This document shows, one piece after another, positions 3,321-51,800 of a DNA stretch of 64,000 nt. Under the pieces are notes generated by a model. It was given only the letters and a program-made list of their open reading frames with translations. It was not told the DNA's origin and made no database searches. Origin of the DNA: Rhina ancylostomus (lineage: Eukaryota); contig JARFYF010000007.1 in NCBI GenBank assembly GCA_030265395.1, positions 32,854,131 to 32,918,130 of the forward strand. Direction: 5' to 3'. Both the position numbers and the translations under genes were made by a program. Positions within the stretch are counted from its first letter, which is position 1. Each line of letters opens with the position of its first letter.

Positions 3321-3754
3321 AGGAAGCTCATTTTCACACCATTTGAAACCTCTACTGCTAGTATATCAATGATAGAAAAACTAGCTGTAGAGGTATGAAT
3401 GTTCTTGAGGGCAGAATTAGTTAAGTGGTGNNNNNNNNNNNNNNNNNNNNNNNNNNNNNNNNNNNNNNNNNNNNNNNNNNNNNNNNNNNNNNNNNNNNNN
3501 NNNNNNNNNNNNNNNNNNNNNNNNNNNNNNNNNNNNNNNNNNNNNNNNNNNNNNNNNNNNNNNNNNNNNNNNNNNNNNNNNNNNNNNNNNNNNNNNNNNN
3601 NNNNNNNNNNNNNNNNNNNNNNNNNNNNNNNNNNNNNNNNNNNNNNNNNNNNNNNNNNNNNNNNNNNNNNNNNNNNNNNNNNNNNNNNNNNNNNNNNNNN
3701 NNNNNNNNNNNNNNNNNNNNNNNNNNNNNNNNNNNNNNNTCTGAGCCATGACCA

Positions 3755-3930
3755 GAAAAGATGGAGATACTCAGCATATCAGGCAGCATATGTGGCGAAA
3801 GACAATTAACATTTAAGGTCAGTGTATCTGCTCTGATGAAAGATTGTCGACCTGAAACATTAATTCTGTTTTTCTCTCTTTACAGATGCTTCCTGACCTG
3901 TTGAGTGTCTCCAGCTTTTTCTGGTTTATT
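3755..3930. mobile_element. Palindromic Penelope-terminus short element with degenerate hammerhead core
   Basis: Left arm 3755-3820 is the reverse complement of right arm 3848-3925. CTGATGA at 3833 and GAAAC at 3854. Confidence 0.7.
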
Positions 3931-4934
3931 TAACATTTCAGTTTAGAGTGCAAGGCACAGCAGGCAATCTGGTATCATAGGGTTACTTCTGGATGAATTG
4001 TAAACTGCTCCATTAAGTTAAAGTGAAAAAAAACACGCTTTAGATTATCTTCTTGCCTGCAAACTGTTACCAGTCAATTTTTCCTGCAAATAAATTTCAA
4101 GGCAATTAGGAATTTGTAAGGATGAATGAATTGCAAAGATAAATGGCACTTACATACATCTATTATAATATTCCTCTGTGCTAATGTAGTCACAGAGGAT
4201 GTGTCTGAATTATCAGGAGTATTGGCTGTTATGTAAATAGAGTCAATCAAAAACAAGGAATTAGAATGGTTAGCATAGCAACTTCTATCTCTTCAGTTAT
4301 TTACTAATCTTGTGGAGATGTTGGAATACTGATAGTGCATTCTTCAGAAAAGAGAAGTGATTATTTCAGAAACTAAACATTATCAACTGATTTTGATTCT
4401 CATTATAACTAACAGGGGTTAAAAGCATGCCCAGATGAGAGGAGAAGCAGCATGGTCCACTTTGTTGCTTTCAATAGGAGAATAATTTATGTGAACCTAC
4501 CCCATCAATCATTTCCCGACTTACCTCTTTGTGTGTCAGATAGCATTCCTCTGCCAATCTTCATTTGCTCATAATAGTATATGAAAAACCAATTGGTGAA
4601 ACTAATATAATATCTACAAATCCTGAATAAACGCTGTACTAAGATATACAGATGACCGTACACTTAAAACCTACCAGAAATGGGTGAAAATGGAAAAACA
4701 ATGCGAAAGCAGAAATTGTTTATAAAAAGCAGCCATTTGCCCTAAGGCTCTCCCTATTCCTGCCCTGGCTCTGAATTTACATTTTTTGTTTGCTGTGCTA
4801 TCTTTCCCCATGCCCTCTATAAATTCATCTTTTGCATAAAGTGCAATAGTACCACATATTAGAAACACAAGTTATAAAACACTTTGAAATAGCCTGAAAT
4901 TGTGAAGAGTACAATGTACATTTAAGTCTTTTCT

Positions 4935-5975: not shown

Positions 5976-6140
5976 GAAAAATTAAAATAACTGCCAATGC
6001 TGGAAATCTGAAATGAAAAAAAAAGAGAAACAAGAGATAATGTTTCAGGGTTACAGAAGGTGTCTGACCTGAAACATTAACTCTGTTTCCCTCTCCACAG
6101 ATGCTGCTTGACCTGCAGAGGGTTTCCTGCATGTTTATTC
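5976..6140. mobile_element. Palindromic Penelope-terminus short element
   Basis: Reverse arm actgccaatgctggaaatctgaaat...tgtttcagg, then forward arm gacctgaaacattaactctgtttccctctccacagatgctgcttgacctgc. Confidence 0.65.
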
Positions 6141-11330: not shown

Positions 11331-13354
11331 TATGATTTCTGATTTTTGCCTCTGCTATTTTTATGAACTGTCATCATGATTATCAAAATTTGCAGTGCAC
11401 TTTGTGGTAAGAAGTTAAACATTAGAACATCAGGTCAAGGTCTAAATCAATTGACAAAAAAGAGTGCAATACACTTATTTATATTATTGACATATAAGTA
11501 TCTCTTAGTCTTTCTGAGTAATTGAATTGACATCAATGACATGGGACACACTGACAGTTAGCACTTATATTGACAATTTTCATTGGTACAAAGTGAACCT
11601 GAAGCTAATGGAATTGCCAAGTGAAATTAAGACATTAAGTGTTATATAAAAATTTCAAATAACCCCAAATAACTTTAAAGCAGCGATCTAAGATGTTTTA
11701 TGTTGAACTCATAAAGCTTTGATAAAGAAAGGACAAGTTAAAAATTAAGGAGTGAGCTGCACATACCTCAGTGTTTGATGTCCACTCATGGTAGCTGAAG
11801 TATGCTAATATTATGTTGTCAGGAAGTGACTGTGATAATCCGATGCCAAGGTTCAGCTAATAATTATAATCTATCCATCTTTCATTATGACTCAAAATAC
11901 TTCCTAGCAACTGTTCACATACATTCATTCGTACTTCTGCAGCTCTCCTGGATTTCACTATTTTATCTCTTGTTCTTTCCATAATCGGTAGGAATATAAC
12001 AAAGCAAGGATGAAAATTGTGCATTTAACAGAGTATGGTAATTATATGACCACGAGATTTACTTTATGTAACATATGTTTCAAATTACATTGAAAGCTTT
12101 TTTGCTAGGTTCTCTCAAAGAGAAATTGCATTATCAAAGTTTAACATGTACCTGCAATGCCATTCATACTGGTGCACAAGGAATTGGTTGTAATCTTGGA
12201 TGCAAAAACAATAGCTGACAACAGCATGAAGTCATCGTAAAAGATAAGGCCATTTTGGGTGGAAATAGTTCAGGGCTGAGTCGACTAAATGTGAGGTCGC
12301 CTAGCTTTTGAAAATTCTGCTGCGGTAGCCAGCAGCTCTATTTGCATTGACAGATAAAGAAAGCCAATATACTGATACCTGGCATAATTTCCTCTCCCAA
12401 ATCTTTAATGATCACAACCATTGGCGGACTGTTGTTTAGTGGATAAAAATAATTATTAGGTTCTGTTTCACCTCCCCTCTGCAACCTTCCTATCCTCACC
12501 ACTTCTTTTCCTTTCACCTCTCATTTCTGTAACCCATTCCCCTCCCTGCACTCTCTCTCAGCTCCCTCCACCATCCACCCCACATGTTTCTCCCTTCAGA
12601 TTTGGACTTTCTATGTGGAATTCATTGGAGCTACCTGAACTGAACAACATTTCAAGTTATTTAATTGGAGTAATTTATAGCTCACTTCTGTGACAATGAC
12701 TGTGCATTGTGTATTCCCGCAATCCTTCATTTTGAGTTACCAGTTGGAGTTGGAACAGTAACCATGGGTGACCATAAATCATAGCCATTACTAAAGGAAA
12801 TTTGGGACTAATAACTCCAGCTAGAAGATAGTTTTGTTCAAGATGTAATGATCAACAATGTCACCAAAGAATTCCTTTAAAGTTAATTATCATCAATTTG
12901 AAGAATGGTTTTATAGATAAAGAATGTTTCCCATCATAATCTTTGTCTTCACATCTGTTTTTTTAATGCTTGTCAGCTCATAATTAACATTAATCCCTCA
13001 CTGGATCTCTCTCACCGGCTCAAGGACCAATCTAAGCAAGTGACATGGCTGTGAAAAGAGAGGCACAAACCGCTGGGGGTCATTCACACCTGTTAGTTTG
13101 GCTTTCTTTGTCTCCACATGAGCAAGGTTCTTGACATCACACTTTGGCATTTTCTACTGGTTGTTGTTGATAGTGTGCTTCTTTCAGAAGGGAAAGAAAA
13201 GGAAATAACTCTCTCATTATTCATNNNNNNNNNNNNNNNNNNNNNNNNNNNNNNNNNNNNNNNNNNNNNNNNNNNNNNNNNNNNNNNNNNNNNNNNNNNN
13301 NNNNNNNNNNNNNNNNNNNNNNNNNNNNNNNNNNNNNNNNNNNNNNNNNNNNNN

Positions 13355-13493
13355 CAGGCAGCATCTGTGGAGGGAAATGGACAGTCGACGTTATGGTTCA
13401 AGACCCTGCATCAGGACTATGACTTTGAGTCCCGATGAAGAGTCCTGACCTGAAATGTCGACTGTTTATTTTCCTCCATGGATGCTGCCTGAC
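13355..13493. mobile_element. Head-to-head palindromic Penelope-terminus element with two degenerate minimal hammerhead ribozyme motifs
   Basis: Arms 13355-13418 and 13428-13491 are inverted. + arm: AGTC-CCGATGA-AGAGTCCTGACCT-GAAAT-GTC-GACT. - arm: AGTC-CTGATGC-AGGGTCTTGAACC-ATAAC-GTC-GACT. Confidence 0.75.
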
Positions 13494-13496
13494 AGG

Positions 13497-13912
13497 CTGG
13501 TAAATTGGTTTGTTATTGTCACATGTACCAAGGTGCAGTGAAAAACTTTGATTTGCATGCCATCCATACAGATCAATTCATTACAACAGTATATTGAGGT
13601 AGTACAAGAATAACAGAATGCAGAATAAAGTTTTACAGTTACAGAGAAAGTGCAGTGCAGGCAGACAATAAGGTGCAAGGTCATAACGAGGTAGATTGTG
13701 AGGTCAAGGGTCCATCTTATCGTACTAGGAAATCATCCATAGTTTTATAACAAAATAGAAGCTGTTCTTGAGCCTGGTGGTACGTGCTATCTGGCTTTTG
13801 TATCTTCCCTATGGGAGAGGGCCGAAGAAAGAATGCCGGGATGGGAGACGTCAGCTGATTATGTCGGCTGCTTTCCGGAAGCAGCGGGAGGTGTAGACGG
13901 GAGTCCATGGAA
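13497..13912 (-). mobile_element. Rex1/Babar LINE 3' end
   Basis: The reverse strand encodes RTTRLKNSFY-like residues and has a 3' UTR ending tttcactgcaccttggtacatgtgacaataa. Confidence 0.8.
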
Positions 13913-14057
13913 GGGAATTCCCAATTAAGAAAATAAGGGGCAAATGGATGGGAAGAGGGAAGGAGGAGGGGAAGGGGAGAGGGGAGGGTTGGAGATCGAA
14001 TGAGAAGGGGAGGGCAGAGAGACGGAGCTAACAGATGTGGGGAGTGAACACTTCACA

Positions 14058-14190
14058 GAGACGCAAGACTGCAGGTGCTGGAATCTGGAGCACTGGTGAA
14101 GGCAAAAGGATGGTCAATGTTTCGGGTCAAGACCCTGCGTCAGGACTCAGAGTGCAGAGGGAAGATAACCGGTGTATGGAAGTGAGAGGG
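14058..14190 (-). mobile_element. Penelope-terminus short element with hammerhead-like motif
   Basis: The reverse strand reads AGTC-CTGACGC-A-GGGT(CTTG)ACCC-GAAAC-ATT-GACC, followed by ccagattccagcacctgcagtc. Confidence 0.7.
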
Positions 14191-15034
14191 AGAAGGGTCA
14201 CACAGGTCGGCACTGGAGTCAGAGGCTGCACCAGAGGGCACAATGCACCAAAGGGTTTCCCCAGAATAGTTGCTCACTCCGCCAGCCTGTCCACCAATCA
14301 CTCTGGTGCATGGCTGATCTGTCCAGGGAGGGTGAGCCCCAGCCCCAGTCCTCGTTCAGAGCATCATGTAAATAGGAACCTCCCGGAGCACACTCTATTC
14401 AGCAAGATCAGGGCCAGTCCTGTGTCTCCTCCGAGAAATCCCTCAACCTCAGCCTTCAACATACAGAGCGCCCTCTCAGAATTCCTGTGCGATCTTCATC
14501 ACCGGTCTCACTGATAGACTCCCCCACGTCCACTGAGTCCACACCAACCATAAACAACCCAATTATACCAATCCCACGNNNNNNNNNNNNNNNNNNNNNN
14601 NNNNNNNNNNNNNNNNNNNNNNNNNNNNNNNNNNNNNNNNNNNNNNNNNNNNNNNNNNNNNNNNNNNNNNNNNNNNNNTGCTTTAATGTTGAAGTTACTA
14701 AAAATAATGCTGGCAATTTTGAATTTTGCTGCTTGGGATTTCTCTTGATATTTTAAACACATTTAATTTGTATTTAATAATATGCAATTATTGTGGCTCT
14801 GGGCTCTCCCCAACTTTGGTCATAACCAAACATTGTACTGTTGTATCACAAGGGAATCATCCAGGTGCTGAAGTTATGGAATAAAAGGTCACTTTAACTT
14901 GATAATGATACTTTGCACCAGGTGAGTTATAAGAAAATGTTTAAAAACATTTTAAACTCATCATTCTCACATCAGTCAAATATGAATGGTTGATATGCTT
15001 CTGTGAAAGGTGCAAAGTGAAATAGGAGTGATTA

Positions 15035-15135
15035 AAAATAAAAACAGAAAACGCTGGAGATTCTTAAAATGTCAGGCAGTGTCCGTGGACAGAGAAACAG
15101 AGCTAATGCTTCAGGTGGAAGACCATTTTCATGGA
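15035..15135 (-). mobile_element. Penelope-terminus short element (old)
   Basis: aaacagaaaacgctggaga...gtcaggcagtgtccgtggacagagaaacagagctaatgcttcagg. Confidence 0.6.
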
Positions 15136-31427: not shown

Positions 31428-33324
31428 TGTTAGGCACTTACTGTTAGATAATTTACTCATCTCAGTAAAAACATTGTGCAAACTAAGGATTATCTTGGAG
31501 GAAAAAAATAGACTCATCTCCTCAAATCCCTCCTCATTTCTAATACAAAATTGTCTTTTTGTGGCCTTTTCATGGATCCCCTAAAATGGCTTTGATCCCT
31601 TGCTTTATACACTAATTATACAATGCCCAATTATTTATCTCTGACCATTCATCCTTCTTTGCCTGTGTACTCCTTGATGAAATCATCTCCATGCACTGGA
31701 GTCCAGTTCCATGATCTTCATTTGTTGATGTCCAGTTCTCTATCTCTATCATTTACTGTACTATATGATATCATTCTATGATGTACATTTTAAACTTGCC
31801 ATTGTTCCAGAATATTTTAAACCAATTTGGAATCATATTGTAAGTTATATCATGGGCTATATTTTATGTCATCTACTTTATTCTATAGAAGACCAAGAAA
31901 ATCATGAAAATTGGCCAATAGGATTCAATGTGAGATCGGGTGGGCAGCCTGGTTTACTTTCATAACATGCACAGCAGGATCAGGTGCAAGATGGCTGGAA
32001 CTGAAGAACCATAGATTTCAGTCAATTCAACAGCACTTCCAGCTTCCACACATCTCACAATCAACTGCCAAATGCTGGTGTACAGCTAAAGCGAGGACTC
32101 CTTGTGCAACGGTTTTAGTTTTAGATCCTTAGGCAGCTTGTGATATTCCATTGGTGTAAATATGCTGGCTTGACCTGAGAACCCATCTGAGTGTCTAGAC
32201 TAAGGCAGGAACCTGGATCTGAATGAATTGTTTTGTTTTTATTCATAGCTGGTGGGGAGTGGTTCATGGAGGAAAGAGAACATTGCCACTGGTGAGAAGA
32301 GTTCTGAAGGTGCTCTCTAACTTGCTGATGGATTTGCCATGAATGACACTTCACTTGAACCCACTAGCTTAGGATTTGAATTTTTGTGGTATGACCCCAG
32401 CATAAATGACAGGTCACATACCCACAGCCCAGACTGTTTGTACCCAGCAATGTTTGTTGACCTGCTAACATTTCATAAATTTGTCTAGAGTCTAATAGAC
32501 CTTGAAGCTTCTCCCAACCGCGATAACTTTGGCAAAAAATTGATGGAAACCCTGGATTAACACATAAACAGGGTTCCCCTCGATCATCCATAGAATTGGA
32601 AAATTCACAGAGGAAATTCCTGGCCAGTGTATTTACCTTTGTCCCAAACTAAAGTACCTGGATAAAGATTCTCTCTTTAACCCCTGGATCTTTTTGTGCA
32701 TATTTTGATATTTTATGGGCACAGATGCACATGGTATGGAAGTGGGTTAATGCAATTGAAGTCAAGGGATCTATCTATGTAAAAACACAAGTATAACTGA
32801 AGGCCAAGGAGGGTCGAGGCAGGGGAAAGGCAAGGGCCAACTAGTCAACCCTTCAGATTCACTGGAGACCCAGGGTAATAATTATTAGTGGTATGCCAAA
32901 AAGGAACAGATGTATCGATCTGCCAAAAGATGCATGTGTATCTCTCCCGCAGGCTACAGGATCAAGAAGTCTGGATTAGCCCTTCCACTAATCACTAAGG
33001 AAGAAAAACCCATTTATTAAAAATAATTATCCTGATTTGAGCTGTTGTTCAGTGACTCATTGGATCTTTGGGAGTTTGGGGGAGGAGAGGTAGTGGTCAT
33101 TCCTTCTACCCATCACCGGAGGATGAGTTTCAACTAGATGGGGACTATTGATGGCCAACTGTTCCTCCTTTGCTTGCCTGCTCCATGAAAAGGATTAAGG
33201 TAACTCCAGTCACTGGCAAGTAAAGATGTAGAGAAACCAAAGGTATGGATATTAGGGCAAATTTCTCAAAATTAGATACTTCCCATTCACTGTTCTCCAG
33301 AAGCTCACCATCCATATTCTAAGC

Positions 33325-33512
33325 AAAAAAAAACAGGTGGTTAGAAGAACTCAGTGGGTCAGGCAGCATCCATGGAGGCAGAGAGATAGTCAATGTTTTG
33401 GACTGAGACCCTGCATCCAGTCCCACCTCCCTTGCACCAATGATCCTTGCTCCTTCACATTTCCTTCCTTTAAAGTAATTCCAGATTTCCAGCATTCACT
33501 CTGCTTTCCTCT
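33325..33512. mobile_element. Penelope-terminus short element (inverted pieces)
   Basis: Minus-oriented agaactcagtgggtcaggcagcatccatggagg...gagaccctgcatc and plus-oriented ccagatttccagcat. Confidence 0.65.
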
Positions 33513-33779: not shown

Positions 33780-33945
33780 AATCTCGTGTCTTATTACAGA
33801 CTTTTCCCTTCCCCATCTTAATATCTCTTTTATCTACAACTTTCCCAGCTCTGATGAAATGTCATTGTAAATGTAAACTCTATTTTTCACTCTCTTACAG
33901 ATGCTGCCTGACCTGCTGAGTATTTCCAGCATTTTCAATTTTTAA
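33780..33945 (+). mobile_element. Penelope-terminus short element
   Basis: cccagctCTGATGAaatgtc...cagatgctgcctgacctgctgagtatttccagcattttc. Confidence 0.7.
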
Positions 33946-45840: not shown

Positions 45841-45894
45841 AATAAACCATAGTGAAAGAGTGATGGTACTGTATCTGTCTCAGTGTGCTAGAAT

Positions 45895-45988
45895 ATTGAT
45901 ATTGGTATTGCTTTATTATTGTCACTTGTACCGAGGTACAGTGAAAAACTTGTCTTGCATATGGATTGTACAGGTCAATTCATTACAC
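45895..45988 (-). mobile_element. Rex1/Babar 3' end (continues into gap)
   Basis: ttattattgtcacttgtaccgaggtacagtgaaaaacttg, similar to the tail at 13510. Confidence 0.75.
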
Positions 45989-51569: not shown

Positions 51570-51800
51570 TTGAAAATCAAAAACTGCAGATGCTGGAAAT
51601 TTGAAATAAACACAGAAAATGCTGGGAAAAAGCAGGTGGTCCTGCAGCATCTGTGGAGAAAGGAATAAAGTTAACATTTCACGTCAATAATCTTTCATCA
51701 AAACTGGGTAAGAAAGAAAACAAGGATACTGCAAATTGCAGAGAAGGACGGGGTAGAGGGAACAAAAGGAACGTCTGTGATCGAGTGGAGACAAAAGTTT
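51570..51800 (-). mobile_element. Penelope-terminus short element
   Basis: aactgcagatgctggaaatttgaaataaacacagaaaatgctgg...gcagcatctgtggag. The reverse core reads agtt-ttgatga-aagattattgacgt-gaaat-gtt-aact. Confidence 0.7.

What the first reader, a model, noticed from the sequence alone, without database searches (positions are those of the whole stretch)
13355..13493. Head-to-head palindromic element carrying a minimal hammerhead ribozyme motif on each strand
Seen: two ~64-bp arms in inverted orientation around a 9-bp spacer. Each arm reads outward, and together they give the consensus AGTC-CTGATG(A/C)-AGGGTCTTGACCC-GAAAC-GTC-GACT. This is type I hammerhead topology: stem I AGTC/GACT, CUGANGA core, stem II GGGT/ACCC, GAAA, a palindromic ACGU stem III and a GUC cleavage triplet. 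Established: Penelope-like elements carry such minimal hammerheads in their terminal repeats, these are thought to cleave as dimers, and the elements often form inverted partial repeats. Inference: this is a non-autonomous, MITE- or retrozyme-like Penelope derivative that carries a ribozyme on both strands. Both arms here have core mutations (U4C in one; A9C and GAAA>ATAA in the other), so this copy is probably inactive.
Basis: partly seen in the sequence, partly recalled or inferred. Interest (0 to 1): 0.7.

Follow-up and report, generated by a model that had tools for sequence, protein, structure and literature searches.

The report
Head-to-head Penelope retroelement end stubs
This short DNA palindrome is two decayed copies of the ribozyme-bearing end of a very common Penelope-type jumping gene, likely joined head to head as it inserted; it is ordinary, though its many siblings suggest that the element's RNA starts at the ribozyme's first base.

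Summary
The inverted repeat is real: 64-nt arms, 78% complementary, 9-nt spacer. The family consensus is a textbook minimal type I hammerhead; both arms here are core-mutated. The arm is the 3' end (pLTR) of a Penelope-like element: walking upstream reaches a reverse transcriptase, a Cys-rich linker and a GIY-YIG-like domain. A 1.21 Mb sample held 218 arms and 28 tight head-to-head pairs against 1 tail-to-tail, about 50,000 pairs per genome. It is not a MITE or retrozyme family: junctions differ from copy to copy, flanking duplications vary in length, and usually one arm alone carries the Penelope 'tail' (21 of 23 selected, 17 of 24 random). Each palindrome is likely built afresh at insertion, an architecture already published. 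One modest addition: arms tend to stop at the ribozyme's first base, behind a TATA-like/initiator-like signal, and G is the commonest non-parental base before it (667 of 1465), which suggests a capped RNA start; one control was not clean. This copy has no detectable duplication or tail. The scan noted the same pattern 168 times in 30 or more genomes, this one included.

The parts
13355..13418 (-). Left arm: 5'-truncated end (pLTR) of a Penelope-like element, 'CC' subtype, starting at hammerhead position 1; visible part only
   Evidence: L001 shows it continuing to about model position 97, no tail
13383..13418 (-). Left minimal hammerhead motif (stem I, core with A9C, stem II with one mismatch, GAAA>ATAA, GUC triplet; predicted cut after 13387)
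   Evidence: sequence
13419..13427 (.). 9-nt junction, not parental upstream sequence; ends in TG before the right arm, as do 19 of 30 sampled copies with G at -1
13428..13493 (+). Right arm: same element end, 'TT' subtype, model positions 1-66, no tail
13428..13463 (+). Right minimal hammerhead motif (U4C, stem II mismatch, ACGU decayed to AUGU; predicted cut after 13459)
   Evidence: sequence
13498..13916 (-). Unrelated high-copy LINE 3' end abutting the right arm (the Rex1/Babar label is recalled, not from a call)
   Evidence: 82 blastn hits in the random sample; 1 of 3 translated stretches of related copies passes the PF09004 cut-off

Best explanation
The palindrome is two 5'-truncated copies of the hammerhead-bearing end of an abundant Penelope-like retrotransposon family lying head to head, likely made in one insertion event and likely inactive as a ribozyme. 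Shown: the arm is the 3' end of an element with RT and a GIY-YIG-like domain; head-to-head pairs are far commoner than chance; in siblings one arm is long (tail) and one short, the pair is flanked by a duplication, and the junction is unique to each copy. Inferred: the enzyme cuts both target strands and primes reverse transcription on each from two start sites about 30-35 nt apart; both cDNAs run to the RNA's 5' end at or near the first base of hammerhead stem I, and end-joining with microhomology and short templated inserts seals them together. The palindrome would then be a by-product, not a replicating unit, and the ribozyme motif is inherited cargo that has decayed neutrally. For this copy the one-event origin rests on family statistics only.
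For: Parent: RVT_1 E 2e-7 above cut-off; GIY-YIG E 0.026, below cut-off; 11 of 30 RT-region loci have a same-strand arm starting 1.06-1.39 kb downstream (read from its list). Orientation: 28 head-to-head, 1 tail-to-tail, 0 direct pairs within 60 bp among 218 arms in 1.21 Mb. One tail: 21 of 23 assessable selected loci, 3 of 26 unassessable; 17 of 24 random pairs, 4 of 28 dropped at edges; 9 of 12 assessable exact palindromes, none with two, 3 of 15 unassessable. Duplications of 12 bp or more: 8 of 26 against 1 of 650 mismatched pairs; 7 of 24 against 2 of 552. Paired arms are more alike than unpaired: 0.82 against 0.77, p 4e-4. 5' ends: 29 of 68 at -3..+6. Base before the arm start, whole genome: C (parental) 6467, G 667, T 436, A 362; 30 of 30 sampled G copies lack parental upstream DNA. 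PMC11167929 shows a Penelope-like enzyme cutting and extending both strands from two internal start sites that define the tail.
Against: This copy has no tail, no shared 9-mer between its flanks, and arms of different subtypes, one of 2 discordant among 19 classifiable pairs. The tail rule is looser in the random set: 4 with none and 3 with two of 24. The G excess was not significant in the small sample (6 of 13, p 0.09), and the control at +1 also had G on top (G 50, T 36, C 14 of the first 100 of 1412 matches, hand count), which A>G transitions or a general junction bias could explain. T at -2 in 19 of 30 is not explained by a cap. The 5'-end peak is inflated by subfamilies whose upstream DNA does not match the model. 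No RNA evidence, and no full-length intact parent was recovered.
Confidence: 0.78

Rival explanations
1. Fold-back or self-priming: one cDNA (or an antisense template) primes on itself and is copied back, giving the inverted arm in one event without priming on the second target strand.
For: Proposed for head-to-head Penelope junctions in PMC3846280 (passage). Paired arms are more alike than unpaired and share rare variants, 0.42 against 0.10 per pair. Spacers often hold short bits templated from the arm ends.
Against: Gives no ready reason for two fixed outer ends with the tail on one side. It predicts identical arms at birth, yet 2 of 19 pairs differ at a two-base subtype marker and 5 of 50 differ at core position 4 (hand count); decay or gene conversion could account for these.
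Confidence: 0.1
2. One reading: the palindrome is a non-autonomous MITE- or retrozyme-like unit that is copied whole and uses a ribozyme on each strand.
For: High copy number with flanking duplications. One junction recurs 17 times in the genome.
Against: All 50 listed of 74 exact palindromes have different spacers. The 17 recurrent-junction loci differ in which side bears the tail, include several subfamilies, and at least one is not a palindrome (by eye). The window's junction is not repeated exactly. No tandem arrays: 0 direct pairs within 60 bp. Only 2 of 80 arms keep an intact motif.
Confidence: 0.05
3. This particular copy is two independent insertions that happen to abut, or one inserted into the other.
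For: No duplication, no tail, discordant subtypes, 81% identity at non-CpG sites.
Against: Chance adjacency should give tail-to-tail and direct pairs as often: 28 against 1 and 0. Both arms start exactly at position 1. The flanks are disturbed by a LINE and a microsatellite, which can hide a duplication.
Confidence: 0.05
4. Sub-rival for why arms stop at stem I: the upstream signals are a branch point, pyrimidine tract and CAG splice acceptor, and the templates were spliced RNAs.
For: The sequence fits a 3' splice site, and older subfamilies show CTAAC before the tract. In D. virilis the intron ends at the 5' end of helix I (PMC4209133).
Against: Most stopped copies keep the AG and often the C before it. 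No conserved upstream exon is seen. A search for the joined form with the one candidate donor found 5 matches, none spliced. In 5 of the 8 solo copies with a duplication of 11 bp or more it is not adjacent to the arm start or only 4 of 8 abut it, so capture of a few bases is not excluded.
Confidence: 0.15

Closest known systems
Inverted-pLTR insertions of endonuclease-bearing Penelope-like elements (Adineta vaga Pen2/Pen2a, PMC3846280, passages; general scheme in PMC8557442, passages; D. virilis Penelope, PMC2377424, passages)
   Same: Head-to-head inverted 5'-truncated copy, 30-40 bp tail on one end only, duplication of about 9-17 bp, microhomology at junctions.
   Different: Here both arms are often only about 100 and 135 nt with no ORF between them, at about 50,000 pairs per genome, and the inner ends cluster at hammerhead stem I.
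Minimal hammerheads of metazoan Penelope-like elements (PMC4209133, parts 1-2 of 4 read)
   Same: Short helix I, unpaired base before stem II, G10.1-C11.1, palindromic 15.2-16.2; the paper reports dual motifs 100-700 bp apart on opposite strands in Schistosoma and ascribes most single motifs to truncated elements.
   Different: The two motifs here are 9 bp apart; stem II has 4 bp; subfamilies carry U4A (22 of 80) or A9C (18 of 80). The parts read do not mention cartilaginous fish.
Anolis Poseidon PAc in vitro (PMC11167929, parts 1-2 of 4 read)
   Same: Both strands cut and extended; two internal RT start sites match the tail; ribozyme cleavage not needed for insertion, which fits arms that span the cut site uncut.
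   Different: The PAc ORF starts inside the hammerhead; the parent here has a Cys-rich RT-EN linker described for Neptune/Nematis. The parts read do not derive palindromes from the result.
Non-LTR retrozymes (bioRxiv 10.64898/2026.07.22.740005, part 1 of 5 and passages)
   Same: ORF-less, type I hammerhead, derived from pLTRs.
   Different: Defined as head-to-tail tandem repeats; this is inverted and not tandem.

Membership tests
EN+ Penelope-like element (truncated derivative) | Arm is contiguous with an RT-coding ORF in longer copies | tested here: met
   RVT_1 E 2e-7 above cut-off in L122, whose arm lies 1.17 kb downstream on the same strand; 2 of 4 stretches hit RVT_1, 1 above cut-off
EN+ Penelope-like element (truncated derivative) | GIY-YIG endonuclease C-terminal to RT | tested here: inconclusive
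   PF01541 at E 0.026 and 0.16, both below cut-off, in 2 of 4 decayed stretches; position and a YIGET motif fit
EN+ Penelope-like element (truncated derivative) | Inverted 5'-truncated copy next to the 5' end | tested here: met
   28 head-to-head against 1 tail-to-tail; long versions in L095, L114, L116, L131
EN+ Penelope-like element (truncated derivative) | 30-40 bp tail on one end (family level) | tested here: met
   21 of 23, 17 of 24 and 9 of 12
EN+ Penelope-like element (truncated derivative) | Tail and target duplication in this copy | tested here: inconclusive
   Neither found; flanks are disturbed by a LINE and a microsatellite
Neptune/Nematis clade | Zn-finger-like linker between RT and EN | tested here: met
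   C-x4-C-x2-C motif in translations of L102, L104, L148; feature taken from PMC8557442
Neptune/Nematis clade | Placement in an RT tree | not tested
   No reference Penelope-like proteins were fetched
Minimal type I hammerhead | Core, stems I and II, palindromic stem III in the family consensus | tested here: met
   80.6% of cells paired against 20-43% for slid controls
Minimal type I hammerhead | Intact core in this copy | tested here: not met
   U4C; A9C plus GAAA>ATAA; stem II 3 of 4 pairs in both arms
Minimal type I hammerhead | Covariation in the stems | tested here: inconclusive
   Score 0.203 against 0.209 shuffled, 357 of 500 shuffles as high; a C-G to U-A swap in stem I in 8 of 80
Minimal type I hammerhead | Self-cleavage as a dimer | not testable with these tools
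   Needs an in vitro assay
MITE | Matching terminal inverted ends, uniform interior, fixed short duplication, transposase partner (definition recalled) | tested here: not met
   Outer ends differ by the tail; spacers unique; duplications 9-17 bp; partner is an RT
Non-LTR retrozyme | Head-to-tail tandem units each with a hammerhead | tested here: not met
   0 direct pairs within 60 bp and 7 within 300 bp among 218 arms
Non-LTR retrozyme | Circular RNA intermediate | not testable with these tools
   No RNA holder listed

The most novel reading that the evidence does not exclude
These palindromes are the fossil record of a missing step in Penelope transposition: the element's capped RNA begins at the first base of its hammerhead, driven by a TATA-plus-initiator promoter kept across divergent subfamilies, and a dimeric enzyme makes two short run-off cDNAs, one on each cut strand and sometimes from two different RNAs, which are then end-joined. 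Tens of thousands of junctions would map the start site and the joining rules without any RNA.
Probability: 0.4. Interest if true: 0.5.

Novelty: new member of a known kind. Interest (0 to 1): 0.25.

Why it matters
As a single locus it does not matter: a dead stub among about 50,000. As a family it gives a large natural data set on how Penelope-like elements form inverted ends, which the papers read describe as unresolved. If the RNA start at stem I holds, it links promoter, ribozyme and the two priming sites in one model and can be tested with 5' mapping and the existing in vitro system.

Tried and rejected
Rfam scan of 12000-15000: no hammerhead match up to E 10. Sequencing runs: no RNA holder listed; this is no evidence on expression. 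Contigs of two runs laid on 13355-14570 were swamped by repeat copies and no listed piece bridged the palindrome, so its presence in the second organism is unknown. Covariation was not above shuffles. The cap-G test in the random sample was inconclusive and the +1 control was not clean. The search for a spliced form found 5 matches, all ordinary upstream DNA of other subfamilies. A recurrent junction was followed as a sign of whole-unit copying and did not hold up. One literature search was swamped by hammerhead sharks. The 26 loci are the best 30 listed of 40 scored among 1713 candidates and are biased toward the window's layout, so random stretches were used as the check. No RT tree, no structure prediction, no paper supplements were read; supplements of PMC4209133 and of the 2026 preprint may list this family. 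A 2017 paper on dimeric cleavage is recalled only and was not held.

Full report
Observation. The inverted repeat is at 13355-13418 and 13428-13491: 64 nt, 78% complementary, 9 nt apart. The + strand folds into one long hairpin, z -14.1. Read outward from the centre, each arm begins with a type I hammerhead layout. Rfam has no match for it up to E 10. A DNA search of the own genome gave 1713 candidates, 40 scored, 30 loci returned, 26 distinct. The consensus of their 52 arms has an intact core, stem I, stem II, the unpaired base before stem II and the palindromic ACGU/GUC end, the features that PMC4209133 lists for minimal hammerheads (parts 1-2 of 4 read). The window's arms each differ from the consensus at 8 positions, including U4C on the right, A9C and GAAA>ATAA on the left, and a stem II mismatch in both. 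A9C is shared by 18 of 80 arms and U4A by 22 of 80, so these are subfamily states. Only 2 of 80 arms (77 random, 3 from the window) keep core, triplet and both stems. Pairing beats slid controls but covariation does not beat shuffles.

Parent element. Copies that extend upstream lead through about 340 nt of pyrimidine-rich DNA into a coding region. Its translations show a YIGET motif with a weak GIY-YIG match (E 0.026, below cut-off), a C-x4-C-x2-C linker and, further up, a reverse transcriptase (RVT_1, E 2e-7). L122 holds RT and arm on one strand, 1.17 kb apart. The arm is therefore the end repeat of an endonuclease-bearing Penelope-like element. The linker points to Neptune or Nematis (PMC8557442, passages); no tree was built. 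No intact full-length copy was recovered. The host looks like a cartilaginous fish; that comes from my recall and from scan notes, not from a call of mine.

Abundance and geometry. In 140 stretches taken at round coordinates (1,209,353 non-N bases) there were 218 arm hits, about 4 x 10^5 per genome by extrapolation. Neighbouring arms within 60 bp were head-to-head 28 times, tail-to-tail once and direct never: about 5 x 10^4 tight palindromes. Exactly one arm bears the 32-nt tail in 21 of 23 assessable selected loci, 17 of 24 random pairs (4 none, 3 both) and 9 of 12 exact palindromes. Direct repeats of 12 bp or more flank 8 of 26 and 7 of 24, against 1 of 650 and 2 of 552 mismatched controls. 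Paired arms are more alike than unpaired ones and agree in subtype in 17 of 19 classifiable pairs. The same layout occurs with long arms reaching into the ORF (L095, L114, L116, L131), so the short palindrome is one end of a continuum.

Not a copied unit. A whole-genome pattern for two perfect arm starts found 74 palindromes; the 50 listed all have different spacers, many with short bits templated from the arm ends (by eye). The window's junction pattern matches itself and one variant only. One junction seen twice in the random sample occurs 17 times in the genome, with mixed tail sides and subfamilies. The defining features of MITEs and of tandem retrozymes were tested and not met. Each strand of the palindrome carries one sense motif paired to its near-complement, so it would not supply a dimer partner in cis (inference).

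Where the arms stop. Of 68 usable 5' ends, 29 fall at -3..+6 (74 scored, 6 dropped at edges or N). This is inflated by subfamilies with other upstream DNA. Among arms at least 84% like the main consensus, 15 of 26 that reach +8 stop between -8 and +8 (hand count, one edge row dropped). Ends do not pile up at the predicted cut site (+32), which fits the report that cleavage is not needed for insertion (PMC11167929). Upstream, several subfamilies have an A/T-rich box near -31 in C-rich DNA and an initiator-like context with the first A of stem I at +1 (promoter consensus recalled). Across the genome the base before the exact arm start is C 6467, G 667, T 436, A 362: G is 45.5% of non-parental bases against 25% by composition, p 3e-22 even against one third, and all 30 sampled G copies lack parental upstream DNA (18 head-to-head, 12 solo). 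An extra G marks a copied cap in L1 insertions (PMC11702581, passage). Against this: the small-sample test was not significant, the control at +1 also has G on top (hand count of 100 of 1412), T at -2 in 19 of 30 is unexplained, and the same upstream signals read as a splice acceptor, as in D. virilis, although no spliced copy was found. D. virilis Penelope is reported to use a TATA-less internal promoter with its start upstream of an intron (PMC2377424, passages), so the arrangement is not general. I put the RNA-start reading at about even odds; an earlier scan note gave me that lead.

Mechanism. Shown: origin, orientation bias, one-sided tail, duplications, unique junctions, clustering of ends. 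Inferred: the enzyme cuts both strands and extends both from two internal start sites, as shown in vitro for the anole element; the two short cDNAs run off near +1 and are end-joined. Fold-back self-priming (PMC3846280, passage) remains a rival.

This copy. It has no tail, no shared 9-mer between its flanks, and arms of different subtypes. The right arm stops at 13493 beside a LINE 3' end (13498-13916) and the left runs into a microsatellite (L001). One-event origin is inferred from the 28 to 1 orientation bias and from both arms starting at position 1. The subtype mismatch may reflect two RNA templates, gene conversion or decay.

Known or new. Inverted pLTRs with a one-sided tail and a duplication (PMC3846280, PMC8557442) and dual opposite-strand minimal hammerheads (PMC4209133) are published. 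Six full-text searches listed no paper on an RNA start at stem I or on double priming as the source of these short palindromes; the library lacks most subscription papers and Repbase/Dfam, and no supplements were read. The scan has 168 notes with these words in at least 30 genomes and 6 in this genome. Verdict: real, ordinary, a new member of a known kind; interest 0.25.

Noticed in passing
window 3753-3943: Older head-to-head pair of the same kind, from a more diverged subfamily.
   Followed up: partly
window about 5995-6135: Degenerate inverted pair of the older subfamily with a deleted left arm.
   Followed up: partly
window 14058-14205, minus strand: Solo arm with tail, an internal deletion and about 55 nt of parental-like upstream DNA; core has A9C.
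   Followed up: partly
window 15043-15124, 33293-33418, 33850-33935, 51581-51700: Further solo arm copies of several ages; 10 arm hits in the window in all.
   Followed up: no
window 13498-13916 and 45893-45988: 3' ends of an abundant LINE; translated relatives match PF09004 (ALKBH8_N), a domain I recall from Rex1/Babar elements.
   Followed up: partly
random sample, e.g. L046, L154, L192, L194: Projected junction overlaps of 22-24 nt recur in 6 of 28 tight pairs, where the start of one arm meets the GGTC of the partner's stem II: a likely microhomology hot spot.
   Followed up: partly
L265-L294: T precedes the non-parental G in 19 of 30 copies; unexplained (non-templated addition, CpG decay or templated insert).
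   Followed up: partly
alignment A1: Whole subfamilies carry non-canonical hammerhead cores: U4A in 22 of 80 and A9C in 18 of 80 arms. Whether they cleave is open.
   Followed up: no
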